Shown here piece after piece: positions 3,349-14,827 of a DNA stretch of 26,294 bases. The notes below the pieces were generated by a model that was not told the DNA's origin, made no database searches, and saw only the letters and a list, made by a program, of their open reading frames with translations. The translations under genes and the position numbers were made by a program. Numbering within the stretch: the first letter of the stretch is position 1; each line of letters begins with the position of its first letter. The stretch comes from a virus (Duplodnaviria; Heunggongvirae; Uroviricota; Caudoviricetes), in IMG/VR virus record IMGVR_UViG_2695420728_000009, positions 1 to 26,294 of that record, one strand, 5' to 3'.

Positions 3349-3424
3349 ACATGAGTCAAATATGAAAGGATGTGAATGATTTGATTACGTTTTAGCTATA
3401 GAATTGAAATGGAAAATCCTTGAA

Positions 3425-3445
3425 TGCAATACAACGTGCAATACA
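3425..3445 (+). promoter_or_regulatory. Tandem pair of TGCAATACA motifs (12-bp period) near the left end; candidate integrase arm-type sites
   Basis: TGCAATACA at 3425..3433 and 3437..3445. The same tandem pair in the same orientation occurs at 14380..14399 near the other end, between the int start and the right junction. Confidence 0.35.
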
Positions 3446-3482
3446 TGGATGAAAACCATCACTCATTTAACAAGAGGAATCT

Positions 3483-4388
3483 ATGCGCTCACCCAACAGA
3501 ATGCATGAACGCTCAACATTTTATAAGTATATGTCGTTGAATACCGCGAAGATTGTTCTTGATTCATGCAGCCTTAGATGGAGTTCTCCGGTCCTATTTA
3601 ATGACCCTTTTGATGTTCCAAGAGAAGTTATGCCTGGTATTAACGAAATTAATATTGGCAAAGCTTTAGCCCGCAAGTTAATAGCGGAGTTGATTACCCC
3701 CAGAGAAGACATACAAAATTTAAACCCTAGAATTAGAACAATGCTAAGTGATTTCCAAAAGTCATTTCCTTTAGGCATACCCGCAGGATTAATTGAAAGA
3801 TTTCAAGAAATGGTAAACATTCCACCAGTTGGGATTGGCGCTCCTGCGGCAATACAAGAAATGAAAGATGTCTGGCGAGGAATGCTTAATAACAGAAGGA
3901 TTTTGTGTTTATCTGAGAGCCCTATAATCACTCCTATGTGGAATCACTATGCCGATAAATATAAAGGTATAGTTATCGAATTGGATTGTGTAGACTTTCT
4001 GGATAGCGCTTGGTTAATAGCCAAACCTATGAAATACACAGATGAAATGCCTCTAACTCACACTGCTGAAGGGATGGCCGAGTTGCTTTTCATGCCAGAC
4101 AATAAGTCAATTGAATATATCAATAATGAGATAATATTCATAAAAACAGAAGAATGGGCATATGAAAGAGAGTGGAGAATTTCAACCTACGCTAGGCCAA
4201 ATAGCACTGGTCAATATAGCGACTTAAAATTTCACCCTTTTGAGTTAAAATCTGTAATACTTGGTCCTCTTTTTGATGCCAGCGAGTTCGATGAAGTCGC
4301 ATCACTAGTTAAAATGTATCCAAGAGCGAAATTATTTAAAAGTTCATTTGGGAACGACAGAAAAATATCCATAGTACCACTACCTTAA
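3483..4388 (+). CDS. DUF2971-like protein (function unknown), AT-rich cargo gene
   Basis: 301-aa ORF with N-terminal FYKY...LFNDPFD and C-terminal EREWR motifs that I recall as DUF2971 hallmarks. Markedly AT-rich relative to neighbours; convergent with the packaging module. Confidence 0.55.
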   Translation: MRSPNRMHERSTFYKYMSLNTAKIVLDSCSLRWSSPVLFNDPFDVPREVMPGINEINIGKALARKLIAELITPREDIQNLNPRIRTMLSDFQKSFPLGIPAGLIERFQEMVNIPPVGIGAPAAIQEMKDVWRGMLNNRRILCLSESPIITPMWNHYADKYKGIVIELDCVDFLDSAWLIAKPMKYTDEMPLTHTAEGMAELLFMPDNKSIEYINNEIIFIKTEEWAYEREWRISTYARPNSTGQYSDLKFHPFELKSVILGPLFDASEFDEVASLVKMYPRAKLFKSSFGNDRKISIVPLP

Positions 4389-4419
4389 AAGGTCAAATGC
4401 TTTTGACAAATAAAATCTA

Positions 4420-4445
4420 TCGCCAGTTTTACTGGCGACTTTTAA
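4420..4445. terminator. Hairpin between convergent genes (DUF2971-like and Nu1-like); likely bidirectional terminator
   Basis: TCGCCAGT-TTT-ACTGGCGA perfect 8-bp stem at 4420..4438 followed by CTTTTAA, with an A/T run on the other side. Confidence 0.5.
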
Positions 4446-4494
4446 GCAACAAAGAACCACCTAAGCACTCTTCCTACCTATGGTTTCATTTGTT

Positions 4495-5046
4495 TTAACT
4501 TCGCTGATTATCCTTGATATACCTTTCAGCCATATCTGGAATGTTATCTGAGATCTGGTAAGCTCGAATAAATGCTTTACTGACCTCCATCTTAATGAAG
4601 TCCTGATACCGTTTTTCCATGCCAGGAAACTGTCGACAGATCGCAAGTGGAAGACTATCAATGATTGCTCCAACTTCCCCAGTTAATTTCGACAAGGCAT
4701 AAGTCGCAAATGCAGTGTCAATTACCTCACCTGTTTCGCTGGCATTCTTCAGTTCCTGTGCGTCGGCCTGCGCACGCGTAAGTCGATGGCGTTCGTACTC
4801 AATAGTCCCTGGCTGGAGATCTGTCTCGCTGGCCTGCCGCAGTTCTTCAACTTCCCGGCGCAGCTTTTCGTTCTCAATTTCAGCATCCCTTTCGGCATAC
4901 CATCTTATAACGGCGGCAGAGTCATAAAGCACCTCATTACCCTTGCCACCGCCTCGCAGAACGGGCATTCCCTGTTCCTGCCAGTTCTGAATGGTACGGA
5001 TACTCGCACCGAAAATGTCAGCCAGCTGCTTTTTGTTGACTTCCAT
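4495..5046 (-). CDS. Satellite small terminase subunit, Nu1-like: N-terminal ~100 aa near-identical to helper Nu1, C-terminal domain diverged
   Basis: 183-aa translation MEVNKKQLADIFGASIRTIQNWQEQGMPVLRGGG... differs from the helper Nu1 (20171..20716) at 2 of the first ~100 residues, then diverges (NASETGEVIDTAF... versus NARDSAEVVETAF...). No large terminase gene follows. Confidence 0.85.
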   Translation of the reverse strand: MEVNKKQLADIFGASIRTIQNWQEQGMPVLRGGGKGNEVLYDSAAVIRWYAERDAEIENEKLRREVEELRQASETDLQPGTIEYERHRLTRAQADAQELKNASETGEVIDTAFATYALSKLTGEVGAIIDSLPLAICRQFPGMEKRYQDFIKMEVSKAFIRAYQISDNIPDMAERYIKDNQRS

Positions 5047-5270
5047 TGTTCATTCCACGGACAAAAACAGAGAAAGGAAACGACAGAGGCCAAAAAGCTC
5101 GCTTTCAGCACCTGTCGTTTCCTTTCTTTTCAGGGGGTATTTTAAATAAAAACATTAAGTTACGACGAAGAAGAACGGAAACGCCTTAAACCGGAAAATT
5201 TTCATAAATAGCGAAAATCCGCGCGCCTGACGCCCCGTAGCCTGTCAGATCGCCGGAAAGGACCCGCCAG
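5047..5270 (-). other. cos-like packaging site of the satellite: cosB copy with variant cosN
   Basis: 5047..5220 is identical to helper 20717..20890 apart from a single base in the R3 element. R-type TerS sites seen at 5071..5086, 5114..5129 and ~5192..5203. The cosN-equivalent 12-mer (5224..5235, CGCCTGACGCCC) differs from the helper's AGGTCGCCGCCC at 5 of 12 positions. Confidence 0.7.
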
Positions 5271-5291
5271 CCAGAGCGGGCCCTAATTTCA

Positions 5292-5675
5292 TCAACCAAT
5301 CAGCTTATAGCGACCATCCCGTGCATTGCGGCGTACACGCTCAATCTTGAGGCATAGCGCCGCATCTGGCTTTTTTGGGACAGGTACGCGGCAATATTCA
5401 GAAGCGCGAGGAATATTATTTATCCAGTCGATCACTTCACTTAAATACCAGGCCTTACGCCCTTCCGTAACCTGCACACGCTCCGGGAACTCTCCACTAG
5501 CCTCAAGGTTTAGCAGTGTACGCCGACTCAGGGTTGTAATTTCCATCACCTGATTCATATCAACAAGGCGCTCGCTTAAACACATTTTGTCAGCGATAGC
5601 TTTTAATTCCTCTACAGCTGGATTCGGGTACATCATTTCGGCAATTGGCTTAAGGTCATTGTAATCATTTTGCAT
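5292..5675 (-). CDS. AlpA/Xis-family HTH protein with N- and C-terminal extensions
   Basis: 127-aa ORF; core MNQVMEITTLSRRTLLNLEASGEFPERVQVTEGRKAWYLSEVIDWI matches the AlpA (MerR-like winged HTH) pattern. Ends 2 bp from the cos region. Confidence 0.55.
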   Translation of the reverse strand: MQNDYNDLKPIAEMMYPNPAVEELKAIADKMCLSERLVDMNQVMEITTLSRRTLLNLEASGEFPERVQVTEGRKAWYLSEVIDWINNIPRASEYCRVPVPKKPDAALCLKIERVRRNARDGRYKLIG

Positions 5676-5686
5676 TGTATCCCCCT

Positions 5687-6028
5687 TTACACACGAGCCA
5701 GCGGCTGAACAGAAATACCTGAGCCAACAAACGCTGCAATCTTTACTGACAGTTCTTTTACAGACTCAGGCCAGTTCAGAGCATCAACATTTAAGACACC
5801 TGTCTTATAGACCTGAGCCTGTGTTTTTTTCGCGGTGTCGATTTGTACAGCGGAAACATAAACCGCTTTACCTACGCTCGAACCATCCCATACCACCAGT
5901 GCACCTGTTGCATCTTCCTGCATCAGTGGCGTAAATGCAGGAATTACCCCTTTATTAGCTGAAAATATCCCCAGCGTAGTCACCAGTGCTTCAGTGCCAG
6001 CCATGAGTTCAGTGTAATGAGTAGCCAT
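5687..6028 (-). CDS. Head decoration protein, lambda gpD-like (diverged)
   Basis: 113-aa ORF; PLMQEDATGALVVWDGSS...YKTGVLNVDALNWPE...AAFVGSGISV aligns with lambda gp[19 protein letters not shown]...[15 protein letters not shown]...[10 protein letters not shown]. Confidence 0.75.
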   Translation of the reverse strand: MATHYTELMAGTEALVTTLGIFSANKGVIPAFTPLMQEDATGALVVWDGSSVGKAVYVSAVQIDTAKKTQAQVYKTGVLNVDALNWPESVKELSVKIAAFVGSGISVQPLARV

Positions 6029-6037
6029 TGCTCCCCC

Positions 6038-7084
6038 TTAGCCAATGCGAACGGTAACAAAACGATTGATGCGGGCCGGTATTGGCTGTGGTGCTGAATG
6101 TGTCTGCACATATTCAATAGCCGGATCACCAGGCACAATATAGTTTTTCGGTGCAAGTTCGGCTTTAGTCAGCCCCATTCGGATTAGCTCCGGATCCTGA
6201 ATACCGCCATAGGCGACAATCCCCTGAAGAGCCGTATTGCCAAGCACCATCAAATCAGGATCAAGGAAATGTTTTTCAGTTCCGTCCTCGTCGGTATAAC
6301 GCCCGCTGTAAACAACAATCGCAACATCGCCCATATATCCTTTAAAACTCACCGAATCACCAAGGTCTTTAAGGGCCGTTTCCAGTTCGGAATTAGAACC
6401 ACGACGGGTATCCAGAGCCTCTTTTATCGCTCTGAATGAACGGTATTTCTTCCATACATTACCGCCCATAATGATGATATTAGTGACGCCCTCACTAAAT
6501 TCTGCGTAGCTCTCAATATCATCATTTGGATCAAAAGTTTCTTTATCCTTACCTGACCACTCAGTACCGCCAGACTGAGTGATGATATTTTGTGGTTTAA
6601 TATTCCAGTCCAGCTCATAACGTTCAATACCATCGCCCTCAATGATATTTTTCCCCGTTGTGATTGCCTGAACGGCAAGCCATTCAATACGTGCACGAAT
6701 AGCTTTAGCTTGATTTACAATCGCCTGTTTAACTTTAATATTACGCGCCCCAAAAGCATTGTATTGCTCAGGTGATACACCAGCAGGGCGCACAGCTAAC
6801 TTATTTGGATCAATGCTGCTTTTCGGCTTCATATAGCCTGGACGAATTGTTTTTGATTCGTACCCTTCGTCACGTGAAACTTTACTACCCACCATAGGAG
6901 AACAAAACGCTGCAATTGGGATATTTGGATCGTCGATTGTATCAAGAATAATATCGCGCGATCCAAACATTACCGAGCGAGTAAAAAACAAACTGGTAAA
7001 CAACGCATTTAGTTGTTTTTGTACATCTACAGCATTAACCACCTGTACAAGCTGGGTAGGCGAATATAAATCAACCATACGCAT
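6038..7084 (-). CDS. Major capsid protein, lambda gpE-like (diverged; roughly half identical by eye in the C-terminal region)
   Basis: ORF 6038..7291 aligns with lambda gpE over most of its length (e.g. ITQSGGTEWSGKDKETFDPNDDIESYA... versus ITQSGGTEWSKRDKSTYDPTDDIEAYA...; TRRGSNSELETA in both). Start set at ATG 7082..7084 (MRMVDLY, matching lambda MSMYTT). Starts at 7078 or 7099 are also possible; the longer N-terminal extension has no homology. Confidence 0.85.
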   Translation of the reverse strand: MRMVDLYSPTQLVQVVNAVDVQKQLNALFTSLFFTRSVMFGSRDIILDTIDDPNIPIAAFCSPMVGSKVSRDEGYESKTIRPGYMKPKSSIDPNKLAVRPAGVSPEQYNAFGARNIKVKQAIVNQAKAIRARIEWLAVQAITTGKNIIEGDGIERYELDWNIKPQNIITQSGGTEWSGKDKETFDPNDDIESYAEFSEGVTNIIIMGGNVWKKYRSFRAIKEALDTRRGSNSELETALKDLGDSVSFKGYMGDVAIVVYSGRYTDEDGTEKHFLDPDLMVLGNTALQGIVAYGGIQDPELIRMGLTKAELAPKNYIVPGDPAIEYVQTHSAPQPIPARINRFVTVRIG

Positions 7085-7252
7085 CCTCTTTGCATTCATT
7101 AAAAATAATTGTGGATATATGCTATCACCGATATTTGTCATGCGAACACATGCAACCGAGTGCAATGTTGTATAAAGTTTTGGGGTGACAACTTCAGTGC
7201 GGACAATTAGTGTTAATATCTTCACTCCCTTTGGTCGGGATTTATGTAGCAT

Positions 7253-7283
7253 GCCGGAAAATTTATTTTTTCCGGCTTTTTTT
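7253..7283 (+). terminator. Strong hairpin followed by a T-tract, oriented antisense to the surrounding minus-strand operon
   Basis: GCCGGAAAA-TTTATT-TTTTCCGGC (9-bp stem) followed by TTTTTTT at 7277..7283. No plus-strand gene lies upstream, so its role is unclear. Confidence 0.4.
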
Positions 7284-7294
7284 ATTGGCAATAT

Positions 7295-7744
7295 TTAAAA
7301 CGGGATATCATCTCCCCATTGCTCATTATCTCCCTCTGGTGGCTGGCTTCCTTGCTGATCTGCCTGTTGTTTTGCTCTGTTCAGTGCGTCAGTAGCCTGC
7401 CCCTGTTGGCCTTTTTTGCCGCCCGGTCGCACCGATCGCGCACTGATTACGCTGTCTGCGATAACCTGCCAGCCCTGCCGCGTTTCGCCGTTCTGTCCAG
7501 TCCACTGGCTCATCTGCATGTTACCCGCCACGCTCAGGAGTTCGCCTTTGTGATGCTTTGCCAGCGCGTCGGCTTGTCTGCCAAACGCCAGGACAGATAA
7601 CCACAACGTCGCCAGACCGTCATCCGACTGACTGCAGGGCAGTGATACCGCCATACGCGCCAGCGTCATGGGGGTGCCCTTGCTGGTCTGTTTTGTCTGC
7701 GGGTCGTCCACCAACCGCCCGTAAACTGATATTTGCGCCGTCAT
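7295..7744 (-). CDS. ssb: Single-stranded DNA-binding protein (SSB)
   Basis: 149-aa ORF with OB-fold-like N-terminus, Gly/Gln-rich linker and the characteristic acidic C-terminal tail ...DDIPF. Confidence 0.85.
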   Translation of the reverse strand: MTAQISVYGRLVDDPQTKQTSKGTPMTLARMAVSLPCSQSDDGLATLWLSVLAFGRQADALAKHHKGELLSVAGNMQMSQWTGQNGETRQGWQVIADSVISARSVRPGGKKGQQGQATDALNRAKQQADQQGSQPPEGDNEQWGDDIPF

Positions 7745-7998
7745 GCTGCCTGCTCTCCGGACTTAATATTGATTGTTGTCACTTCCTCCGCTTCAGCAAT
7801 CTCCCGTTCGGTCAGCGTGGCAAAGTTTGCAGCCGCCGTTGTCATGAATGCGCTTATCAGTTCGGGATGTGCTTTCGCGTATCCTTCCCCGGCGTTGCGG
7901 TCTATTGCCTTAATCGCCACCCTTAGCCAGTGTTCAGCCATATCAAGGGCGCGGTAATGTGGCTTTATATGTTTGTTCAGTTTTCCTGATGTGTGCAT
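7741..7998 (-). CDS. Hypothetical protein (85 aa), translationally coupled to ssb
   Basis: ORF overlaps the ssb start by 4 nt in the same operon; no family recognised. Confidence 0.45.
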   Translation of the reverse strand: MHTSGKLNKHIKPHYRALDMAEHWLRVAIKAIDRNAGEGYAKAHPELISAFMTTAAANFATLTEREIAEAEEVTTINIKSGEQAA

Positions 7999-8043
7999 TT
8001 TTATTTTTACCCCCTCGTTTAAAAAGTTTTTTGTGCACCACCA

Positions 8044-8274
8044 CCTTGTCTACCTTGTCTACCTGATTAGTTATCAGGCCAGTAATGGCGCGGGTTTCAG
8101 GGAGGTAGACAGCCCCAAATAGCTGTCTACCTCATCTCTACCCGTCTCCTTACCTGTCTACAAAAATGGGTAGATAAGGTAGATAACAGGTAGACAGTGA
8201 AAAATAGTTATCTACCTGCATTAATACATTGAAATAAAAGTATTTTCTTTCAGTCAGGTAGACAAGGTAGATAA
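8044..8274. repeat. Iteron array, GGTAGA(C/T)A in both orientations (10 or more copies); putative satellite origin of replication
   Basis: Copies of TGTCTACC / GGTAGACA / GGTAGATA at ~8046, 8055, 8103, 8123, 8153, 8169, 8178, 8190, 8208, 8257 and 8266, in a non-coding stretch immediately 3' of the primase-helicase gene. Confidence 0.7.
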
Positions 8275-8287
8275 CCATTGCCATTTT

Positions 8288-10039
8288 TTATAAAAACGCA
8301 TCGCAATCATCAGTAGTCGTTGCGTTGGTCTGCGTGACTCCCTTAACTTTTCGCGTAATATATTCATATCCGTAAACTTTCGCCGCTGACCTCATAGCCT
8401 TTCCGAACTCATTCACGCTCAAACATTTCCCCTTTCCTGTGTATGCCATGAAGGCCATATAGACACGGTAAAGGCTGTTTCTGGTCGTGTACTTCACGGT
8501 GTCACCACCACCGCCCATCATTAGCCCACGAGCTTCCTCCAGAAACTCCAGCGCCGCGCAAAGCTCAACAACCGGATCCGTTTGCTGCTTTATTGCCAGA
8601 GCTTCATCACCGTCACGCTGTTCCAGTAATAAAGCCCGTGCCTTTTCAGGGGCAGCAAAATTAGCCAGCAAGCGGCGGATAATTACGGGGATTTCTGCCG
8701 CTATCTTTTCCGGTAATTCCTTGTCTTTTTCGTCCTCCCTTACAATGTTGTCGAACCGGAAAATCACCCGACGGCGTGACACACCTCCGGCCCGTTCGGT
8801 AAAGATCATCGGGTCGTTATTGGTTGCCAGTACCACCGCCCTTATTATCGTCGTGAATCGCTTCTCATATTTCGGGTTAATTTCAACGGGATCGCCTCCC
8901 GTGATTTTCTTGATGCCCGTGCCTTCCCCCGTATATTTCGGCTGATCGGCAAGGACGATAAGACGACTCCCGACAACCTGCGCGCGCCCTCCTGCATCAT
9001 CGAGTGATGTCATCTCCGCGCTTACGGTGTTCTGTTTGCCAGCAAGCAGGGTGGCAATATGGGTAAATGTACTCTTACCGCTTCCCCCGTCTCCGGTGGC
9101 CTCAATGAACATCTGCCAGTCGTAGCGGTTCGCCATAATCATGTATAACGCGGCACATATACGCATCATCTTACGCGGGTCTTTTCTTGCAGCATGTTCA
9201 AGCCATTTATGGAAATTTGGCGCATTATCGCGGATGTTTTCCCCTGCTACTGGTGGCGTGTACTCAATGCCATTGTGCGTGGTGCTCCAGTGCTCCGGCG
9301 AGTGCGGAGAAAATTCCCCCGTTTTCAGGTTAAGCACACCATTAGTGAACGGTAGCAAATCACCGGACGGCTCCCCCATGGGGTCGGCAATAACTTTTAA
9401 CGCTTCCACGGCGTTATTGATTACACGTTTGCTGAACGTGGCCCTGTGCTCTGAATAGATCGCCACCATTTCGCGGCTCAGCTCCATTGTGCTGACCGGA
9501 CACCATACCCCGCCGCGCCATACGTGGACGATTTCACTTTCTGCATGAACACACACACCATCAAAGCGATCGGCAAGTAGTTGTGCACGTTCACTGTCTG
9601 CCATCTGTGAAAGTTGCGCCTTTTGCTTCGTCGGAAGATTAAGCACCAGACTTTCCCCACGCTCGCATTCCTCTTTGAGTCGCGGCAACTGCTCGGATAA
9701 ATCCACTGGGCTGGTGTCAGTAATCCCCGCGTATTCGTGTACGGTCTTCACTCCAGCCACAGCCAGTAACGTAACAATCTGCGTCATGCTGTGCTCTGTG
9801 ATATGTCCTGCGCGGTAAACACGCACACACTGACGATCTTCATCAATGATCCGGTAATCGGTGATATTTTTCAGTTGCTCATCAGCCAGCACGACAGGCG
9901 GCACATCGTCGGCGGCAATATGTTTACCCGCCCATTCCCGCCACTCTTTCGCATGGCTCCACGCATCACTACCTGCAAAGATGATTACCTCTGTCAGTCT
10001 GTCGCGTGGCTGTTTTTTTAAGTTCGGTGCCAGTTTCAT
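8288..10039 (-). CDS. Replication initiation protein: primase-helicase (P4 alpha-like C-terminal / D5_N-SF3 helicase type)
   Basis: 583-aa ORF with Walker A EATGDGGSGKST and the overall pattern of phage/plasmid primase P4-family C-terminal domains; N-terminal region resembles a toprim-like domain. Confidence 0.85.
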   Translation of the reverse strand: MKLAPNLKKQPRDRLTEVIIFAGSDAWSHAKEWREWAGKHIAADDVPPVVLADEQLKNITDYRIIDEDRQCVRVYRAGHITEHSMTQIVTLLAVAGVKTVHEYAGITDTSPVDLSEQLPRLKEECERGESLVLNLPTKQKAQLSQMADSERAQLLADRFDGVCVHAESEIVHVWRGGVWCPVSTMELSREMVAIYSEHRATFSKRVINNAVEALKVIADPMGEPSGDLLPFTNGVLNLKTGEFSPHSPEHWSTTHNGIEYTPPVAGENIRDNAPNFHKWLEHAARKDPRKMMRICAALYMIMANRYDWQMFIEATGDGGSGKSTFTHIATLLAGKQNTVSAEMTSLDDAGGRAQVVGSRLIVLADQPKYTGEGTGIKKITGGDPVEINPKYEKRFTTIIRAVVLATNNDPMIFTERAGGVSRRRVIFRFDNIVREDEKDKELPEKIAAEIPVIIRRLLANFAAPEKARALLLEQRDGDEALAIKQQTDPVVELCAALEFLEEARGLMMGGGGDTVKYTTRNSLYRVYMAFMAYTGKGKCLSVNEFGKAMRSAAKVYGYEYITRKVKGVTQTNATTTDDCDAFL

Positions 10040-10335
10040 TTTTTGCCCCTGAATGCGTTAATCATGCTTTTCATTTTCTGGATGTTTCCCCGCGCTTTTT
10101 CCCTGCTGATGGGCTTACTGCGGGGTGCGGCATATACCAGGGAAAAATCACGCCGGAACTGATAAACAGGCATCACGCAGTCATAGCTATACCCCTCACG
10201 GCGGTAAGTGATGCGCCGTTCTGCCACGCCTTTAATCGTTACCGTGCCGCCGTATTTATCGCGGTAAATATCGCCGTTCATAAATTCAGGCCGAGCGGGG
10301 CCGCTGGCAATAAAGCCAGAATTTTTCATTTCCAT
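10036..10335 (-). CDS. Hypothetical protein (99 aa), coupled to the primase-helicase gene
   Basis: 4-nt overlap with the primase start, same strand; no family recognised. Confidence 0.5.
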   Translation of the reverse strand: MEMKNSGFIASGPARPEFMNGDIYRDKYGGTVTIKGVAERRITYRREGYSYDCVMPVYQFRRDFSLVYAAPRSKPISREKARGNIQKMKSMINAFRGKK

Positions 10336-10352
10336 ATTATTTATTCCTCGAC

Positions 10353-10574
10353 TTAACTCGACTTATTTGATAGCAGGGCACTATTTATTGCGTCATTGAG
10401 TTTTTCTGCTGATTCATCAATAAGTGACAACAGGCCATAAGCAATATTTGCATCTTCATTGTCATTTATGCAATCAAGCCACATATTTAATATTGCTTTT
10501 GCTGAATTATTTAAAGTTAATGAACTTTCTGCACATGCTAACAATTTAAAAAAGACTTCCCGTTCTGTATTCAT
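10353..10574 (-). CDS. Hypothetical small protein (73 aa), AT-rich
   Basis: Compact in-operon ORF; no recognisable motif. Confidence 0.4.
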   Translation of the reverse strand: MNTEREVFFKLLACAESSLTLNNSAKAILNMWLDCINDNEDANIAYGLLSLIDESAEKLNDAINSALLSNKSS

Positions 10575-10766
10575 TTAATCCCCCACCAGCTTACTTTCTT
10601 CCTCAATCAGGAAACTAGCGACACTTCCCGAAAGGCGCGCCAGTAGGCTCGCCAGCGCGGATATATCAGCATCTGTAATTTTGTTCGGGTATACCTCAAG
10701 AAGGCGGCAAATAATTTCTGTCTGGTGCGCACGTTCAGCGGCTTCGTGTAATGTGATTTCCTGCAT
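10575..10766 (-). CDS. Hypothetical small protein (63 aa)
   Basis: Abuts the neighbouring ORFs with no gap; no recognisable motif. Confidence 0.4.
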   Translation of the reverse strand: MQEITLHEAAERAHQTEIICRLLEVYPNKITDADISALASLLARLSGSVASFLIEEESKLVGD

Positions 10767-10951
10767 TAATGCACCTCTTTTAATTCATACACTGCTGAAA
10801 TAATGACTTGTGATAAGCCATATTCTGATGATTCGCTTCTCACCGCAGCAATAGCCGTCTGAACATTAACAGCCTTCACGTTCTGAGTGATACCAATTGT
10901 GTGGCCCAGTGGGTTAACAGCTCGGGCAAATACACGGAAGGTTTTAAGCAC
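10766..10951 (-). CDS. Hypothetical small protein (61 aa)
   Basis: Tightly packed in the same operon; no recognisable motif. Confidence 0.35.
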   Translation of the reverse strand: MLKTFRVFARAVNPLGHTIGITQNVKAVNVQTAIAAVRSESSEYGLSQVIISAVYELKEVH

Positions 10952-11207
10952 GGCACACCTCCTGACGAATACGGGCGGCGAATATCATCACGTAGCCAGT
11001 TGGGGATTGCTGGCGGGCTTCCTGTTCGCTGGCGGCCTCGATGTGTATTACGCGTGGTTGTGCGGTGCTCAGGGCGATAAAACGCCAGATGTATTTATTC
11101 AGGTTGTGCGAATCCCGCCCTTGCGGGTGTGTGGTATGATTTCTCATAGCTACCTCGATACTGTTGCTATCGTTGGTGGTTAGACGCCCTGTATGTGTTG
11201 CGAGCAC
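10944..11207 (-). CDS. Hypothetical protein (87 aa or shorter), first gene of the leftward operon
   Basis: ORF begins just downstream of the divergent promoter region 11208..11286; an internal start (MRNHTTHP...) is possible. Confidence 0.35.
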   Translation of the reverse strand: MLATHTGRLTTNDSNSIEVAMRNHTTHPQGRDSHNLNKYIWRFIALSTAQPRVIHIEAASEQEARQQSPTGYVMIFAARIRQEVCRA

Positions 11208-11243
11208 TGCAGGGCGTTGTTATATAGCAATAAAACATGATAA

Positions 11244-11286
11244 GGTGTGTACCTATCAAGAATCATACTAAGCAATAGGTACACAC
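11244..11286. promoter_or_regulatory. Perfect 12-bp inverted repeat (GTGTGTACCTAT ... ATAGGTACACAC) in the divergent promoter region; candidate operator
   Basis: Arms at 11245..11256 and 11275..11286 separated by 18 bp; the right arm ends at the ATG of the RHH gene and overlaps its ribosome-binding site. Confidence 0.45.
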
Positions 11287-11481
11287 ATGTCAACTATCAT
11301 TCAACGTGATAAACAACCGAAAGGTGCAGGTAAAGCACCAGCATTCCAAGTCCGTATTAACCCAGAATTAAAAGAACAAATGGTTAATGTCGCTGCCAAA
11401 GAAGGGATGAGCTTAGGTAACTGGCTAAAAGAACTGGCTCGTGCCGAACTAATAAAACAAGGAATAACACCTAAAGGCTGA
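11287..11481 (+). CDS. Small ribbon-helix-helix-like DNA-binding protein (YlcI/YnfO-like pattern)
   Basis: 64-aa ORF; FQVRINPELKEQMVNVAAKEGMSLGNWLKELARAEL fits a beta-strand-helix-helix (Arc/MetJ-like) pattern and resembles the helper moron 21105..21338 (IRFPNQMIEQINIALDQKGYGNFSAWVIEACRRRL). Confidence 0.55.
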   Translation: MSTIIQRDKQPKGAGKAPAFQVRINPELKEQMVNVAAKEGMSLGNWLKELARAELIKQGITPKG

Positions 11482-11504
11482 TAATTTGCATAAAGGATTC
11501 TTCT

Positions 11505-12854
11505 ATGACAACAAGTCACAAAATGCTAGAAATCAGTAAAGAACAATTTGATGTATTTTTCTATGGTCGTACACCATACGTAAAAACCTTTTCGGAGGAA
11601 ATCTGTTGGTTCAAATTTATAAAGGATGATGTCACGATCTTAGCAACAATTGTTTTTTGTAAAATAGATAATGATTACAACGCTATATTTCTAGGTAGGG
11701 ATTTAGATAAAAAATTTAGAGCGATTAAAGTAATTGTATCCCGTGAATCTAAAGATGATTTAATTACTGATATGGAAAAAGCCATACCAGAGCTATTATC
11801 ACTACACAAGAACGGTTGTTTTATACAGGGTGACGAATCAGAGTCGGCATTTTCAATATTCCTAGCCAAAGTTCCAGAACATAAAAAAAACGTTTATCTA
11901 AGAATGCTACTTGAGGAACCCAAACACTATCCTGCATTTATTGTTATGCAAGAGTTAGCTTATTGGTGTAAAGATCCTGATGGAATATTCATCAGAGATT
12001 TCCAGAGTGCTTCATTTAACTCTCGCTTATTCGAACTTTATCTAAACGCAGTTTTCTACGAAATGGATTTCGTAATATGCAGAGATTATGCTCAACCTGA
12101 TTATATTATCTCAAAAAATGGCATTGATATTGCTGTAGAAGCTGCCACAGTTGCAGAACAAGAGGAACCTACCGAGAAATTGATACTTGATCATGAGGCA
12201 GTAGAAGATCTTCAGAGATATGTAAAAGAACAAATGCCATTCAAATTTGCCCGCACTCTATTAAAGAAAGTTAGGCATAAACCTGAACCCTTAAAATTAT
12301 GCTATTGGGAACTAGATCATACAAAAGGAAAGCCTTTCATTATTGCTTTACACGATTACTCACGCAGATTTTCGATGAGTATATCAATGCCAGCACTACA
12401 AAGCTATCTGTATGGTGTAGATATGGATTCTGGAAGTAAAATTGAACAACATTTATTTGAAAATCGAAGTATACAATCTAATTTTTTCGGCTCTAATAAA
12501 AATGAGAATGTCTCAGCCATATTACTTGCGACACATGCCACCATCCCAAAATTTGATAGGATGGGAGTAGTGGCAGGGATTGAACAAAAAAATGTCAAAT
12601 CCATCGTTAGAGGTATTAAAACTGATGAAGGCTGTACCCCAATGCCTTTTACTGCTCTTGTCAATGCACCTTCATATCAAGAACCATGGTGTACAGCAAT
12701 ATACATGTTTCATAATCCGAAGGCATTAAATCCTATACGCCCTGAATTATTCCCAAGAGTTATTCATATTTTTGAAGAAGATGGAGAAATAGTTCAATAC
12801 TTACCACCTAATTATATAATCTCATCAACTACGCACGTATTTGAATTTAAGTGA
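11505..12854 (+). CDS. Large unknown protein (449 aa), AT-rich cargo; candidate defence or toxin effector
   Basis: Long clean ORF 23 bp downstream of the RHH gene; very low GC compared with flanking satellite genes. No family recognised by eye; a weak PD-(D/E)xK-like stretch (QPDYIISKNGIDIAVEAA) is noted without confidence. Confidence 0.7.
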   Translation: MTTSHKMLEISKEQFDVFFYGRTPYVKTFSEEICWFKFIKDDVTILATIVFCKIDNDYNAIFLGRDLDKKFRAIKVIVSRESKDDLITDMEKAIPELLSLHKNGCFIQGDESESAFSIFLAKVPEHKKNVYLRMLLEEPKHYPAFIVMQELAYWCKDPDGIFIRDFQSASFNSRLFELYLNAVFYEMDFVICRDYAQPDYIISKNGIDIAVEAATVAEQEEPTEKLILDHEAVEDLQRYVKEQMPFKFARTLLKKVRHKPEPLKLCYWELDHTKGKPFIIALHDYSRRFSMSISMPALQSYLYGVDMDSGSKIEQHLFENRSIQSNFFGSNKNENVSAILLATHATIPKFDRMGVVAGIEQKNVKSIVRGIKTDEGCTPMPFTALVNAPSYQEPWCTAIYMFHNPKALNPIRPELFPRVIHIFEEDGEIVQYLPPNYIISSTTHVFEFK

Positions 12855-12859
12855 TTTCA

Positions 12860-12886
12860 AATCCTATGGGTTTACCCCATAGGATT
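12860..12886. terminator. 11-bp perfect-stem hairpin between convergent genes (449-aa cargo and alpA)
   Basis: AATCCTATGGG-TTTA-CCCATAGGATT at 12860..12886, 6 bp after the cargo stop codon. Confidence 0.5.
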
Positions 12887-12905
12887 ACATCCACTGTCTA
12901 AATTC

Positions 12906-13127
12906 TTACCACTCTCCCCTAATCCATGCCTGCACTTCTGAAAGACGATATGCAACAGCAGTGGAACCAATCTTGATCCGCTTAGGAAATTTTCCTTCCT
13001 TCTCCAGCTTCCAGCGTGTGCTGTTCGCAAGAGTGGTTAGCTCCCGACATTCTTTCTCACGGATCATACGATCGATATTAGGAATGTACTCCAGACCCTT
13101 TTTATCGACAATTGCCATTTTTTTCAT
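12906..13127 (-). CDS. alpA: AlpA-family transcriptional regulator / excisionase-like protein
   Basis: 73-aa ORF; RELTTLANSTRWKLEKEGKFPKRIKIGSTAVAYRLSEVQAWI matches the AlpA HTH signature; immediately downstream of int on the same strand. Confidence 0.85.
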   Translation of the reverse strand: MKKMAIVDKKGLEYIPNIDRMIREKECRELTTLANSTRWKLEKEGKFPKRIKIGSTAVAYRLSEVQAWIRGEW

Positions 13128-13128
13128 G

Positions 13129-14364
13129 TTAACCAGCCTTTTGTTTGAGGATTGTCACTTTTGAATCAGCACCTGCGATGCTATTGAGATATGTAGTCCA
13201 GAGTTCCAGAGCATCCAGTTTTTTAGCCATAAACTTACTCCGGTTGTAAACACCTGCCACGCCAGGTAGCGCATGGCCTAACAGTTGTTCTACTACATAA
13301 AATTCAACACCGAGATCACTTAGATGAGTAGATAGCGTTCTTCTAAGGTCGTGTAGTGACCATTGTTTTTCATGGCCCAAACGTTTACCGATTTTCCCCC
13401 CAATCTTGCTTACGCTTTCTCTAATTCGCAGACTTCCCAGCACATAACCAGTATGTTTTGTCTCTTCGTGAACATCCGTTACCCACTGTCGTAGAATTTC
13501 AGGTACTGGTCTGACGATTTCAACACCAGTTTTTGAGTGATCTTTTGGTACAGTCCAAACCCAACTTTCGAGATCCCATTCGCTCCATTCTGATAATCGG
13601 GCTTCACTCATTCGACATCCAAATACTGTACAAAGCACAAACATTTTTCGCGTGTATTCAGACATTAGTTTTAAATCAGGCTCGACAAAAATTGCCTTCC
13701 AGAGCTGGCCGAGTTCGGCTTCATCCAGAACCCGATCCCGCTTACCTGCAATCTGCCCCACATCACTCATGCGCAAATCCTTTAAAGCATCACACGTCGC
13801 GTACTGGCGTACCCGACAAAAACGAAGAGCTAATTTAGTGTCAGAAAAAACATACGCCGCCATAACTGGTGCATTACGTTTAATTCGGTCAAAACAGTCC
13901 AGCCATTCATATAGGTGAGTGTCATTTACGGGCAAATGACCGATATAGGGAAAGATATGCTTTCGAAATCTGCCAAGCGTTACAGCATGAGTTTTACGAC
14001 GCACCTTACAGTAATTTTCATACCAGTAATTTAGTGCATCCTCCACTGTGACCGGCTTTAAGCGTTCTTCAGCCTGAATCTTAATCTGGATACGCGGATC
14101 ACGTTTGTCAGCCAACCAACCACGGCACTCGTCGCGCTTTTCCCTTGCCTGTTTGAGTGACATATCAGGATATTTACCCAACGTTAGCCAGACCGGAGCA
14201 GCCCGGCCACCTGCTAACCTGTAGAAGAAAACAAAGCTCACAGCCCCTTTAGTACTCACACGAATAGAAAGCCCCTTTCCATCAGCAATGGTGATCTGCT
14301 TTTCTCTGGGTTTCCCCAGATATCCTTTAAGCGCTTTGTCGCTCAGTTTGTTCTCGCCAGCCAT
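13129..14364 (-). CDS. int: Tyrosine site-specific integrase (P4-type)
   Basis: N-terminus MAGENKLSDKALKGYLGKPREKQITIADGKGLSIRVSTKG... typical of the P4-integrase N-terminal domain; C-terminal catalytic region with HDLRRT and LLGH motifs and a Tyr-containing tail. Start set at ATG 14362..14364; the 17 upstream codons are extension. Confidence 0.9.
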   Translation of the reverse strand: MAGENKLSDKALKGYLGKPREKQITIADGKGLSIRVSTKGAVSFVFFYRLAGGRAAPVWLTLGKYPDMSLKQAREKRDECRGWLADKRDPRIQIKIQAEERLKPVTVEDALNYWYENYCKVRRKTHAVTLGRFRKHIFPYIGHLPVNDTHLYEWLDCFDRIKRNAPVMAAYVFSDTKLALRFCRVRQYATCDALKDLRMSDVGQIAGKRDRVLDEAELGQLWKAIFVEPDLKLMSEYTRKMFVLCTVFGCRMSEARLSEWSEWDLESWVWTVPKDHSKTGVEIVRPVPEILRQWVTDVHEETKHTGYVLGSLRIRESVSKIGGKIGKRLGHEKQWSLHDLRRTLSTHLSDLGVEFYVVEQLLGHALPGVAGVYNRSKFMAKKLDALELWTTYLNSIAGADSKVTILKQKAG

Positions 14365-14379
14365 TTTTAGCCCCAAAAA

Positions 14380-14399
14380 GCAATACAAGCTGCAATACA
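14380..14399 (+). promoter_or_regulatory. Second tandem pair of GCAATACA motifs (12-bp period); candidate integrase arm-type sites / int promoter region
   Basis: GCAATACA at 14380..14387 and TGCAATACA at 14391..14399; same motif, spacing and orientation as the pair at 3425..3445. Confidence 0.35.
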
Positions 14400-14526
14400 G
14401 AGATGATTGCAACACACAGATAACGAGGAAAATTCAGTGAAAGCACCAGATAAACTTATTCTTTATTATCAAAAGATTAAGTGTAAAAACCAGCAACTAC
14501 ACGAAAGCCTCAGAAAGCCATGCTAA

Positions 14527-14772
14527 GTGCTTCGGCTTGACATATCCCGGTGTAAATTCAGAGGTGGAGCCGCCACGGGAGCGGATAACCTCACCGGAAA
14601 CAATCGGCGAAACGTACAGCGCCATGTTTACCAGTCCCGGAATTTGTGAGAGATAGACTTTCTCCGTGGTGAAGGGATAGCTCTCACGGAAAAAGAGACG
14701 CAGAAACAGCGGATCAAACTTAAATTTCTTCTCATTTGCCGCCAGCAGCTGGGCGGTTGTGTACATCGACAT
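14527..14772 (-). pseudogene. E: 5' fragment of major capsid gene E (codons 1-82), truncated by the element
   Basis: From ATG 14770..14772: MSMYTTAQLLAANEKKFKFDPLFLRLFFRESYPFTTEKVYLSQIPGLVNMALYVSPIVSGEVIRSRGGSTSEFTPGYVKPKH matches the lambda gpE N-terminus, then reads into element sequence (LAWLSEAFV, stop at 14497). Confidence 0.9.
14528..14537. repeat. Right copy of the 10-bp direct repeat TGCTTCGGCT (attR-type core)
   Basis: Exact match to 3339..3348; E homology ends at 14527. Confidence 0.75.
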
Positions 14773-14827
14773 AAAAAAATCCCGTAAAAAAAGCCGCACA
14801 GGCGGCCTTTAGTGATGAAGGGTAAGG

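What the first reader, a model, noticed from the sequence alone, without database searches (positions are those of the whole stretch)
10353..11207. Cluster of four or five small unassignable ORFs at the head of the satellite replication operon
Tightly packed 61-99-aa ORFs with no recognisable domains occupy the position where satellites typically encode regulators and helper-interference factors. They are transcribed from the divergent promoter region that contains the palindromic operator.
Basis: inference. Interest (0 to 1): 0.35.

Follow-up and report, generated by a model that had tools for sequence, protein, structure and literature searches.

The report
Small genes heading a satellite operon
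These are real, conserved small genes at the start of the replication operon of a phage satellite that sits inside the capsid gene of a lambda-like prophage. Two belong to known families (the Icd/Kil cell-division inhibitor and the RgdR/DUF4222 regulator) and three still have no known function, so the finding is correct in outline but ordinary.

Summary
The ORFs exist and are genes. Four lie inside 10353-11207 on the minus strand and a fifth, of 99 aa, lies just outside at 10036-10335. All have Shine-Dalgarno sites, abut or overlap their neighbours, and the best-sampled ones are under purifying selection. "No recognisable domains" is wrong for two of them. ORF1 is an Icd-like protein, in the same family as P1 Icd and P4 Kil. 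Its true start is the ATG at 11147 (67 aa); the GTG at 11207 lies inside a conserved leader hairpin. The 99-aa ORF is a DUF4222/RgdR-family protein. The 61-, 63- and 73-aa ORFs match only PHROG families of unknown function. Predicted folds (beta-beta-alpha-beta for orf61, a helical hairpin for orf73) give no function. The element is a published kind, a helper-embedded PICI in the lambdoid E gene, and the operon layout parallels the left operon of P4. Across 86 related loci Icd-like is always at the head. The orf73 family is always next to DUF4222, which is translationally coupled to the replicase. orf61 and orf63 are swappable cassettes. A preprint reports transposon hits in genes of identical size and overlap (Icd-like, 61 aa, 63 aa) that suppress phage-triggered cell death in ECOR61. 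The divergent RHH gene, the operator and the promoter are supported by comparison between loci. The cluster is of low novelty, and the biochemistry of three ORFs remains open.

The parts
11287..11481 (+). Divergent 64-aa ribbon-helix-helix gene, the putative repressor of the leftward operon. RefSeq calls it a 'HicB family antitoxin'.
   Evidence: Weak HicB and Arc Pfam hits, and PHROG 'Arc-like repressor'. Its ATG overlaps the -35 of the leftward promoter. A divergent RHH of this type or the YlcI type lies within 600 nt of Icd in 72 of 86 loci.
11245..11286 (.). Operator: a 12-bp perfect inverted repeat, GTGTGTACCTAT / ATAGGTACACAC, with arms at 11245-11256 and 11275-11286.
   Evidence: The arms bracket the -10 hexamer. 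In other loci the arm sequence differs with the RHH allele but stays palindromic, for example GTGTACACCTAT/ATAGGTGTACAC.
11265..11293 (-). Sigma-70-like promoter of the operon, with -35 TTGACA at 11293-11288 and -10 TAGTAT at 11270-11265.
   Evidence: 10 of 12 positions, 17-nt spacer. TTGACA is kept in the variants carrying the closer RHH alleles. This is a prediction only.
11184..11217 (-). Conserved two-tier GC-rich hairpin in the about 110-nt leader, followed by the conserved UCUAACCA(C/A)CAACG. It contains the spurious GTG 'start' at 11207.
   Evidence: Present in 65 of 86 loci. 94% of cells are paired against 30-52% when partners are slid. Three pairs show compensatory changes, and 0 of 500 shuffles reach the score. 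No Rfam family matches.
10944..11147 (-). Icd-like protein, 67 aa (P1 Icd / P4 Kil family), first gene of the operon.
   Evidence: NF033153 at 1.1e-19 and 70 bits, against a cutoff of 25. P1 Icd and the P4 'cI'/Eta-Kil ORF hit the same model. 42% identity to P1 Icd over 43 aa, E 5e-7.
10766..10951 (-). orf61, 61 aa, a swappable cassette gene that always comes directly after Icd.
   Evidence: phrog_3672, unknown function. pN/pS 0.16. AF2 pLDDT 93.5 with a beta-beta-alpha-beta fold. Fold matches carry no function. Found in 45 of 86 loci, with a 49%-identical homologue in E. albertii.
10575..10766 (-). orf63, 63 aa, a cassette gene.
   Evidence: phrog_1478. 42 clusters at 73-98% identity in Escherichia and Shigella. 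pN/pS 0.05. Found in 51 of 86 loci, including 7 that lack orf61.
10353..10574 (-). orf73, 73 aa, a fast-evolving helical-hairpin family that always sits immediately upstream of DUF4222.
   Evidence: phrog_2196. AF2 pLDDT 90.8 with two long helices. hhalign to the position-equivalent proteins gives 96% probability, E 2e-9. The family is in 71 of 86 loci and is always last in the slot.
10036..10335 (-). DUF4222 / RgdR-family protein, 99 aa, with NGD instead of RGD at residues 20-22. Its stop overlaps the primase start (ATGA).
   Evidence: PF13973 at 9e-24. 74% identical to the O157 copy, which carries all six diagnostic RgdR residues (with PMC3378721). The ATGA overlap is present in 86 of 89 loci.
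8288..10039 (-). Primase-helicase, 583 aa (D5_N, DUF5906, P4-type primase C-terminal region), the replicase of the operon.
   Evidence: Its N-terminal 140 aa or so recur in front of RepA-helicase and DUF927 replicases in other loci.

Best explanation
The interval is the promoter-proximal part of the early (replication) operon of a helper-embedded PICI satellite.

Shown:
- One transcription unit on the minus strand holds five translationally coupled small genes followed by the replicase: Icd-like (67 aa), orf61, orf63, orf73 and DUF4222/RgdR-like (99 aa).
- The layout parallels the left operon of P4 (kil/eta, epsilon, orf151, orf106, alpha) and the P1 icd-ant unit.

Inferred:
- In the resident state the divergent RHH protein binds the palindrome that brackets the -10 and keeps the operon off.
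- When repression is lifted, by a cue from the helper or from an infecting phage, the operon is transcribed through a structured leader.
- Translation of icd then feeds the downstream genes through the overlapping stops and starts.

Likely roles, by family:
- Icd-like is the growth or division-arresting effector, as for P1 Icd and P4 Kil.
- orf61 and orf63 are exchangeable accessory cassettes. In a near-identical locus they are needed, together with Icd-like, for phage-triggered cell death.
- The orf73 family and DUF4222 are the constant partners of the replicase. They most likely modulate the replicase through its shared N-terminal domain, or modulate transcription, since RgdR is a pleiotropic, weakly DNA-binding regulator.
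For: Gene reality and coupling.

Icd-like membership and homology to P1 Icd and P4 Kil. The P1 record notes icd as 'inhibitor of cell division; apparently required for expression of ant', with an ATGA overlap to ant1. P4 layout. P4 eta/kil biology is summarised in PMC10111431.

Element type: the prophage E gene is split at 14497-14799 and 2558-3334. A 10-bp direct repeat lies at 3339 and 14528. int, alpA and the primase are co-oriented with the late genes. This matches HE-PICI 11capE.

Architecture in 86 loci:
- Icd and DUF4222 are the anchors.
- orf61 is in 45 loci and is always first.
- orf63 is in 51 loci.
- The orf73 family is in 71 loci and is always last.
- The replicase type varies (primase 74, RepA 11, DUF927 2) but always keeps the same N-terminal domain, and the ATGA overlap is present in 86 of 89 loci.

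Regulation: promoter and operator, covariation of operator arms with the RHH allele, RHH present in 72 of 86 loci, leader hairpin.

Experiment elsewhere: in ECOR61, suppressor Tn5 insertions fell in genes of 192, 186 and 366 nt with 1-nt and 8-nt overlaps, exactly as for orf63, orf61 and icd here. All six linked genes, including the primase, were needed to reconstitute the effect. Loci L092 and L098 carry a 366-nt Icd-like gene plus the exact orf61. Their block from the icd core to the primase is 98% identical to the window at the DNA level.

RgdR: PMC3378721 and PMC10877973.
Against: - No function has been shown for orf61, orf63 or orf73. Their predicted folds (beta-beta-alpha-beta, helical hairpin) have only generic matches. 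orf63 was not modelled.
- The ECOR61 contig itself could not be read, so identity with that locus rests on gene sizes, overlaps and a proxy locus.
- Tn5 insertions in orf61 and orf63 could act by polarity on downstream genes. Uncontrolled PICI replication is itself toxic (PMC6092414).
- The window's Icd-like protein is the short 67-aa form, not the 121-aa form of ECOR61.
- The RgdR phenotypes (LEE activation, motility) were measured outside any satellite life cycle. The window's protein has N at residue 20, a change reported to lower T3S activation.
- The promoter, the repressor role of the RHH protein and the role of the hairpin are predictions.
- The 80 IMG/VR loci are the nearest relatives by DUF4222 similarity and are redundant, so the counts are not frequencies in nature.
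Confidence: 0.6

Rival explanations
1. One reading: the small proteins act on the helper phage. One or more would be a derepressor or antirepressor of the lambdoid repressor, as P4 epsilon acts on P2 C and P1 Ant on C1. Alternatively they would be interference factors that lower helper titre or change capsid size.
For: Position. In P1 the gene translationally coupled to icd is the antirepressor ant. In P4 the gene after kil/eta is epsilon, the helper derepression protein. Here orf61 overlaps the icd stop by 8 nt. Cassette-like turnover of orf61 and orf63 would fit adaptation to different helpers.
Against: There is no similarity to PF25738 (epsilon), to any antirepressor Pfam family or to P4 proteins. 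A helper-embedded satellite is reported to excise only after the composite has been induced and replicated (PMC10111431), so derepressing the helper is less needed. E. coli PICIs are reported to be switched on through AlpA by the helper (PMC6092414). The satellite carries its own E-like, D-like and Nu1-like genes elsewhere, and these are the more obvious packaging or interference candidates.
Confidence: 0.15
2. orf73 and DUF4222, and possibly orf61 and orf63, are replication accessory proteins. They would control copy number or origin loading through the N-terminal domain of the replicase, as the gene directly upstream of alpha (orf106, Cnr by my own knowledge) does in P4. On this view the toxicity seen elsewhere is a by-product of runaway replication.
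For: The orf73 family is always adjacent to DUF4222 (71 of 71 occurrences). DUF4222 overlaps the replicase start (ATGA) in 86 of 89 loci. Three replicase types share the same N-terminal domain behind it. P4 orf106 occupies the equivalent place. Uncontrolled PICI replication reduces viability (PMC6092414). All six genes, including the primase, were needed in ECOR61.
Against: There is no homology to DUF5375/orf106. RgdR alone, expressed from a plasmid, changes LEE1 transcription and motility without the replicase (PMC3378721). Removing the Icd-like gene abolished cell death in ECOR61.
Confidence: 0.2
3. Some or all of the three unassigned ORFs are not genes. The stretch would be a long leader or spacer whose reading frames stay open by chance.
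For: orf73 has only four hits at E <= 0.001 among 1.84 billion representative proteins: itself and three long proteins matched only in short stretches. Among near-identical copies its pN/pS (0.47) does not separate the frames, with only 8 variable sites. The orf61 and orf73 families are narrow, with 13 and 6 clusters.
Against: The frame-specific pN/pS of orf61 and orf63 argues for coding. All genes have SD motifs and coupled junctions. Diverged homologues of 24-55% identity are kept in the same position. AF2 models are confident from shallow alignments. PHROG families exist for each ORF and RefSeq calls them as genes. Transposon phenotypes were reported in the 61- and 63-aa genes.
Confidence: 0.03

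Closest known systems
Left (early) operon of satellite phage P4: orf88/vis, eta/kil (annotated 'cI' CDS), epsilon, orf151, orf106, alpha
   Same: The order of functions is the same: an AlpA-like gene upstream, an Icd-like/Kil gene first, several small genes, then a P4-type primase. The P4 Eta/Kil ORF and the window's ORF1 hit the same NCBIfam model and phrog_1743.
   Different: P4 controls the operon with the CI RNA and seqA, which Rfam detects as C4 and isrK in P4 and in the E. albertii locus L004. No such RNA is detected in the window; instead there is a divergent RHH gene with a palindromic operator. The small genes are not homologous to epsilon, orf151 or orf106.
Phage P1 immI unit: c4 RNA, icd, ant1/ant2
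   Same: The Icd homologue (42% identity over 43 aa) is the first translated gene and is translationally coupled to the next gene.
   Different: The gene downstream in P1 is a 347-aa antirepressor; here it is a 61-aa protein of unknown function. No C4 RNA is present here.
ECOR61 'prophage' cell-death / superinfection-exclusion locus triggered by phage accessory gene orf24 (Silas et al., bioRxiv 10.1101/2023.04.06.535777)
   Same: A six-gene unit that includes an Icd-like gene and a DNA primase. Suppressor insertions fell in genes of 366, 186 and 192 nt with 8-nt and 1-nt overlaps, the same sizes and overlaps as orf61 and orf63 here. Proxy loci L092 and L098 are 98% identical to the window from the icd core to the primase.
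   Different: The ECOR61 Icd-like protein is 121 aa, with an N-terminal extension that looks like a second Icd-like repeat. The window's is 67 aa. The ECOR61 sequence itself could not be read, and the trigger was not tested here.
RgdR (ECs1581, O-island 51 / CP-933C of E. coli O157:H7) and c1493 of EcCICFT073
   Same: The window's 99-aa ORF is a full-length DUF4222 protein. It is 74% identical to the O157 copy, sits in the same position in front of the replicase, and has the conserved core at residues 20-68.
   Different: Residue 20 is N (NGD) instead of R (RGD). An engineered R20N change lowered T3S activation in RgdR (PMC3378721). Its role in the satellite's own life cycle has not been studied.
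Helper-embedded PICI 11capE, E:Phage_cap_E site group (Tommasini, Mageeney & Williams 2023, PMC10111431)
   Same: [quoted passage not shown] It has int, alpA, a variable zone, a replication zone and a late zone with its own E-like capsid gene.
   Different: That paper places Icd/Eta-type genes in a 'Bro zone' and leaves the small ORFs as hypothetical families. The window's copy has no Bro-N domain and carries a PD-T7-1 defence gene in the variable zone.

Membership tests
Icd-like proteins (NCBIfam NF033153; P1 Icd, P4 Kil/Eta) | Match to the family HMM above its curated cutoff | tested here: met
   70.2 bits against a cutoff of 25, E 1.1e-19, residues 39-82 of the 87-aa reading. P1 Icd scores 52.6 bits and the P4 ORF 73.9 bits on the same model.
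Icd-like proteins (NCBIfam NF033153; P1 Icd, P4 Kil/Eta) | Direct pairwise similarity to the founding, experimentally studied members | tested here: met
   P1 Icd: 42% identity over 43 aa, E 5e-7. P4 Eta/Kil: 30% over 47 aa, E 0.003.
Icd-like proteins (NCBIfam NF033153; P1 Icd, P4 Kil/Eta) | Inhibits cell division or kills the cell when expressed | not testable with these tools
   Activity is known only for P1 Icd (record note), P4 Kil (summarised in PMC10111431) and the ECOR61 locus.
P1/P4-type RNA immunity module (C4/CI RNA with its target upstream of icd/kil) | C4 (RF01695) and/or isrK (RF01394) RNA upstream of the Icd-like gene | tested here: not met
   There is no hit at the gathering threshold in the window and none at E <= 5 in 9800-11700. 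As a positive control, both models hit P4 and locus L004.
DUF4222 / RgdR family | Pfam PF13973 match, about 99 aa, conserved core at residues 20-68 | tested here: met
   83.2 bits against a cutoff of 27. 99 aa. 62-86% identical to the copies in other loci, with an invariant core.
DUF4222 / RgdR family | RGD motif at residues 20-22, needed for T3S activation by RgdR | tested here: not met
   The window protein reads F-M-N-G-D (N20). PMC3378721 reports that R20N lowers T3S activation.
P4 epsilon 'Derepression' family (PF25738) | Match to PF25738 or similarity to P4 epsilon | tested here: not met
   None of the five ORFs hits PF25738 at E <= 0.1. hhalign of each family against epsilon gives probability below 3%. 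Epsilon itself hits the model at 9e-51.
P4 orf106 (DUF5375; Cnr by my own knowledge) | Match to PF17345 or similarity to P4 orf106 | tested here: not met
   No Pfam hit. hhalign probability is 1% or less. The two resemble each other only in position, directly upstream of the replicase.
Helper-embedded PICI (HE-PICI), E:Phage_cap_E group | [quoted passage not shown] | tested here: met
   int at 13129-14415, alpA at 12906-13127 and the primase at 8288-10039 are all on the minus strand, as are Nu1, A, portal, C, D and E. E is split into profile positions 1-78 and 94-328. The 10-bp repeat TGCTTCGGCT lies at 3339 and 14528.
ECOR61 orf24-triggered cell-death locus | Six linked genes from an Icd-like gene to a primase, with the 61- and 63-aa genes directly after Icd | tested here: inconclusive
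   Gene sizes and overlaps match exactly, and proxy loci with a 366-nt Icd gene are 98% identical to the window. The ECOR61 contig QOYT01000045.1 was not available, and the window's Icd is the short form.
Known anti-phage defence systems (PADLOC) | Match of any small ORF to a PADLOC model | tested here: not met
   No hits for the five ORFs at E <= 0.01. The neighbouring 449-aa gene hits PD-T7-1.

The most novel reading that the evidence does not exclude
The head of the satellite's replication operon doubles as a phage-sensing switch. On this reading Icd-like is the effector and the exchangeable 61- and 63-aa proteins are its specificity or adaptor components. Their turnover between satellites would then tune which phage cue converts satellite induction into growth arrest. 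A related reading is that orf61, coupled to icd as ant is in P1 and epsilon is to kil in P4, is a new minimal antirepressor.
Probability: 0.2. Interest if true: 0.6.

Novelty: already known. Interest (0 to 1): 0.3.

Why it matters
The block from icd to the primase is very common in E. coli. The exact orf61 protein is indexed in thousands of assembly blocks, and about a third of complete genomes match part of the region. Even so, three of its genes have no known function.

Placing them in a defined frame turns a list of 'hypothetical proteins' into specific, cheap experiments. The frame is: Icd/Kil at the head, exchangeable cassettes in the middle, and a constant orf73-DUF4222-replicase unit at the end, all under a divergent RHH repressor.

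It also ties together three literatures that do not cite each other for this locus: RgdR virulence regulation in EHEC, PICI and HE-PICI biology, and the ECOR61 phage-triggered cell-death locus. For the genome scan itself, this is a correctly spotted but ordinary and already described feature.

Tried and rejected
1. Rfam search for a P4/P1-type immunity RNA gave nothing in the window, although the controls were positive.
2. The 20-nt complementarity between 11134-11153 (icd RBS and ATG) and 11249-11268 looked like an RBS-sequestering pairing. It is not kept in loci that have the same RBS but other operator variants, and half of it lies upstream of the predicted transcription start. I treat it as chance.
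3. I suspected that orf61 is a diverged copy of the Icd-like core, because both read as beta-beta-alpha-beta. hhalign gave 0.1% probability.
4. There is no profile relation among orf61, orf63 and orf73 or to P4 epsilon, orf151 or orf106. A weak DUF4222-to-P4-orf151 signal (probability 11%, E 0.003) was not confirmed by Pfam.
5. Fold searches. orf61 resembles the archaeal/eukaryotic ribosomal protein LX/eL20 domain (TM about 0.8, E 1.7e-3) and many uncharacterised small phage proteins. orf73 resembles generic helical hairpins such as Rop and MIT domains. Neither supports a function.
6. PDB sequence searches with Icd-like and DUF4222 gave no hits.
7. The genome-contig scan with the single DUF4222 protein returned only two loci. 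The IMG/VR scan with an alignment was used instead.
8. phmmer of orf73 against 1.84 billion representatives found only itself plus three long proteins matched only in short stretches.
9. tblastn of Icd-like and orf61 against 50,697 phage records gave one hit and none, respectively.
10. The PHROG label 'transcriptional repressor' for the Icd-like family is most likely inherited from the legacy P4 'cI' CDS annotation. I did not take it as evidence of function.
11. The 1999 P4 kil/eta paper (PMC94026) is not held.
Full report
**1. What is in the sequence**

On the minus strand, from the head downstream, the window has these ORFs:
- 10944-11207: 87 aa if read from GTG
- 10766-10951: 61 aa
- 10575-10766: 63 aa
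- 10353-10574: 73 aa
- 10036-10335: 99 aa
- 8288-10039: 583 aa

Every gene has a Shine-Dalgarno-like motif, and the junctions are those of a translationally coupled operon:
- icd and orf61 overlap by 8 nt
- orf61 and orf63 share TAATG
- orf63 and orf73 abut
- the 99-aa gene and the 583-aa gene share ATGA

Four lie inside the stated interval, and the 99-aa one lies just outside its start.

**2. Are they genes?**

Yes. Among 18 distinct colinear copies, pN/pS in the annotated frame is:
- orf61: 0.16, against 1.2 and 1.7 in the other sense frames
- orf63: 0.05, against 1.1 and 9.7 in the other sense frames
- the 99-aa gene: 0.49, against 1.0-1.4
- orf73: uninformative in this set, with only 8 variable sites

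Family-wide medians are 0.16, 0.12 and 0.26. Although orf73 is uninformative there, diverged homologues of 24-33% identity occupy the same position. A profile comparison of the close group with the distant group gives 96% probability and E 2e-9.

Further support:
- The exact orf61 protein is indexed in 4022 blocks of public assemblies, always in the same block of genes.
- RefSeq annotates all five genes.
- Megablast finds part of the region in 1810 of 5426 complete E. coli genomes, but only 17 cover at least 80% of it. This already shows a mosaic.

**3. Correction of the 5' end**

The GTG at 11207 is not a start.
- It forms the inner stem of a conserved hairpin at 11184-11217.
- The hairpin is followed by the conserved sequence UCUAACCA(C/A)CAACG.
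- The hairpin and motif are present upstream of Icd in 65 of 86 related loci.
- The GTG is CTG in 8 of 23 sequence variants.

On 23 distinct sequences, 94% of cells pair, against 30-52% when partners are slid. Three pairs show compensatory double changes, and none of 500 shuffles reaches the observed covariation. All changes are Watson-Crick to Watson-Crick, so the data do not separate an RNA hairpin from a DNA palindrome.

The coding start is the ATG at 11147, giving 67 aa, as in RefSeq. No Rfam family matches the hairpin.

**4. What the ORFs are**

- The same model is hit by P1 Icd at 3.4e-14.
- It is also hit by the C-terminal part of the P4 ORF annotated 'cI gene product', at 7.8e-21. That ORF is the eta/kil reading frame described in PMC10111431.
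- The window protein aligns directly to P1 Icd: 42% identity over 43 aa, E 5e-7.
- The PHROG label 'transcriptional repressor' is shared with that legacy P4 annotation. I do not take it as functional evidence.

*The 99-aa ORF (DUF4222/RgdR).* It is a full-length DUF4222 protein (PF13973, 9e-24). This family has a studied member, RgdR (ECs1581).
- RgdR is a 99-aa protein of O-island 51/CP-933C in E. coli O157:H7.
- It activates LEE1 and type III secretion and represses motility.
- It binds DNA weakly and without specificity.
- Its CFT073 orthologue is c1493.
- Sources: PMC3378721 and PMC10877973.

The O157:H7 locus I fetched (L005) carries a DUF4222 protein with all six residues that distinguish ECs1581 from the ED1a variant. 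Directly upstream of it are homologues of orf61 (97%), orf63 (78%) and orf73 (33%). The window's protein is 74% identical to that copy. It has N at residue 20 (NGD, not RGD), a change reported to lower T3S activation.

*orf61, orf63 and orf73.* They have no Pfam, NCBIfam or PADLOC match, only PHROG families of unknown function. Their sequence families are narrow and confined to Escherichia and Shigella: 13, 42 and 6 clusters.

AlphaFold2 results:
- orf61: a confident beta-beta-alpha-beta fold, pLDDT 93.5
- orf73: a two-helix antiparallel hairpin, pLDDT 90.8

Fold searches return only generic or uncharacterised matches. orf63 was not modelled.

**5. Context**

The window is the head-gene region of a lambdoid prophage, with Nu1, A, portal, C, D and E on the minus strand. 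Its major capsid gene E is split into profile positions 1-78 (14497-14799) and 94-328 (2558-3334). The split is caused by an element of about 11.2 kb flanked by the 10-bp direct repeat TGCTTCGGCT, at 3339 and 14528.

The element is co-oriented with the late genes. It encodes:
- an integrase and AlpA
- a PD-T7-1 defence gene
- the RHH gene and the operon discussed here
- an SSB
- its own E-like capsid and D-like decoration genes
- a second AlpA-like gene
- a Nu1-like small terminase
- a DUF2971/PDC-S31 gene

This is the published helper-embedded PICI of the E:Phage_cap_E group, with 11capE as prototype (PMC10111431).

**6. Comparative anatomy of the slot**

I collected 89 loci, oriented on the DUF4222 gene: the window, eight RefSeq or GTDB loci, and 80 IMG/VR loci. 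This is a redundant sample biased to near relatives.

Of the 89 loci, 86 have an Icd-like core upstream, 200-1250 nt away. Between the two anchors there are one to five small co-oriented genes, falling into a handful of families:
- orf61 is in 45 loci, always directly after Icd, and with orf63 in 44 of them.
- The orf63 family is in 51 loci, including 7 without orf61.
- The orf73 family is in 71 loci and is always the last gene, next to DUF4222.

The DUF4222 stop overlaps the replicase start (ATGA) in 86 of 89 loci. The replicase is a primase in 74 loci, a RepA-type helicase in 11 and a DUF927 protein in 2. It always begins with the same N-terminal domain of about 140 aa, at 42-100% identity.

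So the constant parts are Icd-like at the head and the unit orf73-family, DUF4222, replicase N-domain at the tail. orf61 and orf63 are exchangeable cassettes.

**7. Regulation**

- A sigma-70-like promoter reads leftward (TTGACA, 17 nt, TAGTAT).
- A 12-bp perfect inverted repeat brackets its -10.
- The ATG of the divergent 64-aa RHH gene overlaps its -35.
- In loci with other RHH alleles at 58-66% identity, TTGACA is kept and the arms change but remain palindromic, for example GTGTACACCTAT/ATAGGTGTACAC.
- A divergent RHH gene of this type or the YlcI type lies within 600 nt of Icd in 72 of 86 loci.

This is the pattern of a repressor and its operator evolving together. Binding itself is an inference.

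The P4/P1 alternative is a C4/CI RNA plus isrK. Rfam detects it in P4 and in the E. albertii locus L004, which also carries an orf61 homologue, but not in the window. In the window alpA is separated from the operon by two genes on the opposite strand, PD-T7-1 and the RHH gene. The operon therefore needs its own promoter.

**8. Experimental precedent**

Silas et al. (bioRxiv 10.1101/2023.04.06.535777) found that a phage accessory protein, orf24, triggers cell death in ECOR61.
- Suppressor Tn5 insertions fell in an 'Icd-like protein' and two hypothetical genes.
- Removing the Icd-like gene abolished it.

Their table gives the genes as QOYT01000045.1:8940-9132, 9131-9317 and 9309-9675. Read with the 0-based starts used elsewhere in that table, these are 192, 186 and 366 nt, with 1-nt and 8-nt overlaps. 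These are exactly the sizes and overlaps of orf63 and orf61 here.

Loci L092 and L098 carry the exact orf61 together with a 366-nt (121-aa) Icd-like gene. Their block from the icd core to the primase is 98% identical to the window at the DNA level.

I could not read the ECOR61 contig, so the equivalence is a strong inference and not shown. Polarity of the insertions on downstream genes is not excluded.

**9. Most likely mechanism**

See the best explanation. The identity of the unit is well supported: a PICI early operon with an Icd/Kil gene first and an RgdR-family gene before the replicase. The roles of orf61, orf63 and orf73 are inferred from position, co-occurrence and one preprint.

It has no support from homology.

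**10. Verdict**

The feature is a common, annotated and already described kind of locus. Novelty is low, and there is a modest open question about three small proteins.

Noticed in passing
window 3339-14537 (direct repeats 3339-3348 and 14528-14537): [quoted passage not shown] It splits E into 14497-14799 and 2558-3334. It carries its own E-like capsid gene (6038-7291), a D-like decoration gene (5687-6028) and a Nu1-like small terminase (4495-5046). This matches the published HE-PICI 11capE type.
   Followed up: partly
window 11505-12854 (+) and 3483-4388 (+): Two low-GC cargo genes lie on the strand opposite to the satellite's operons. The 449-aa protein hits the PADLOC model PD-T7-1 at 1e-153. 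The 301-aa DUF2971 protein hits PDC-S31 at 3e-31. In sister elements the first position holds other cargo (DUF2971, Bro-N, a 178-aa protein), so it behaves as a defence hotspot between alpA and the RHH gene.
   Followed up: partly
window 11184-11217 (-) and the following ~15 nt: A conserved hairpin with compensatory changes, followed by UCUAACCA(C/A)CAACG, lies in the leader of the Icd operon in 65 of 86 loci. It has no Rfam family. It could be an attenuator, a processing site or a protein-binding site, and RNA versus DNA function is not resolved.
   Followed up: partly
window 9620-10039 (-), i.e. residues 1-140 of the 583-aa primase; loci L002, L005, L007: The N-terminal 140 aa or so of the replicase are shared (42-100% identity) by three different replicase types: P4-type primase, RepA helicase and DUF927. 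In all of them it is preceded by DUF4222 with an ATGA overlap. No Pfam domain covers this region; only phrog_2850 does.
   Followed up: partly
loci L092 and L098, 3643-4008: Some sister elements have a 121-aa Icd-like protein whose N-terminal half looks like a second, diverged Icd-like repeat (FIYTFLAL...TTVHVAADTLVDARKMV...). Other loci fuse the Icd core to much longer N-terminal regions, up to several hundred residues by my rough ORF extension.
   Followed up: no
locus L004 (E. albertii) 5353-5541: A satellite with an orf61 homologue (49% identity) and DUF4222 uses the P4-type C4 and isrK RNAs upstream of its Icd-like gene. The same operon body therefore occurs with either RNA-based or RHH-protein-based control.
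   Followed up: partly
window 5292-5675 (-): A second AlpA-family gene (127 aa, PF05930 at 7.6e-9) sits in the late zone, between the decoration gene and the Nu1-like gene. It may be a late-gene regulator of the satellite.
   Followed up: no
locus L001 (E. coli MLI104K2): The best full-length match to the region (98.6%) is a decayed copy. The primase is truncated by an IS5-family element, the integrase is frameshifted, and the surrounding prophage near ybhB is heavily degraded. The small-ORF block is nonetheless intact.
   Followed up: no
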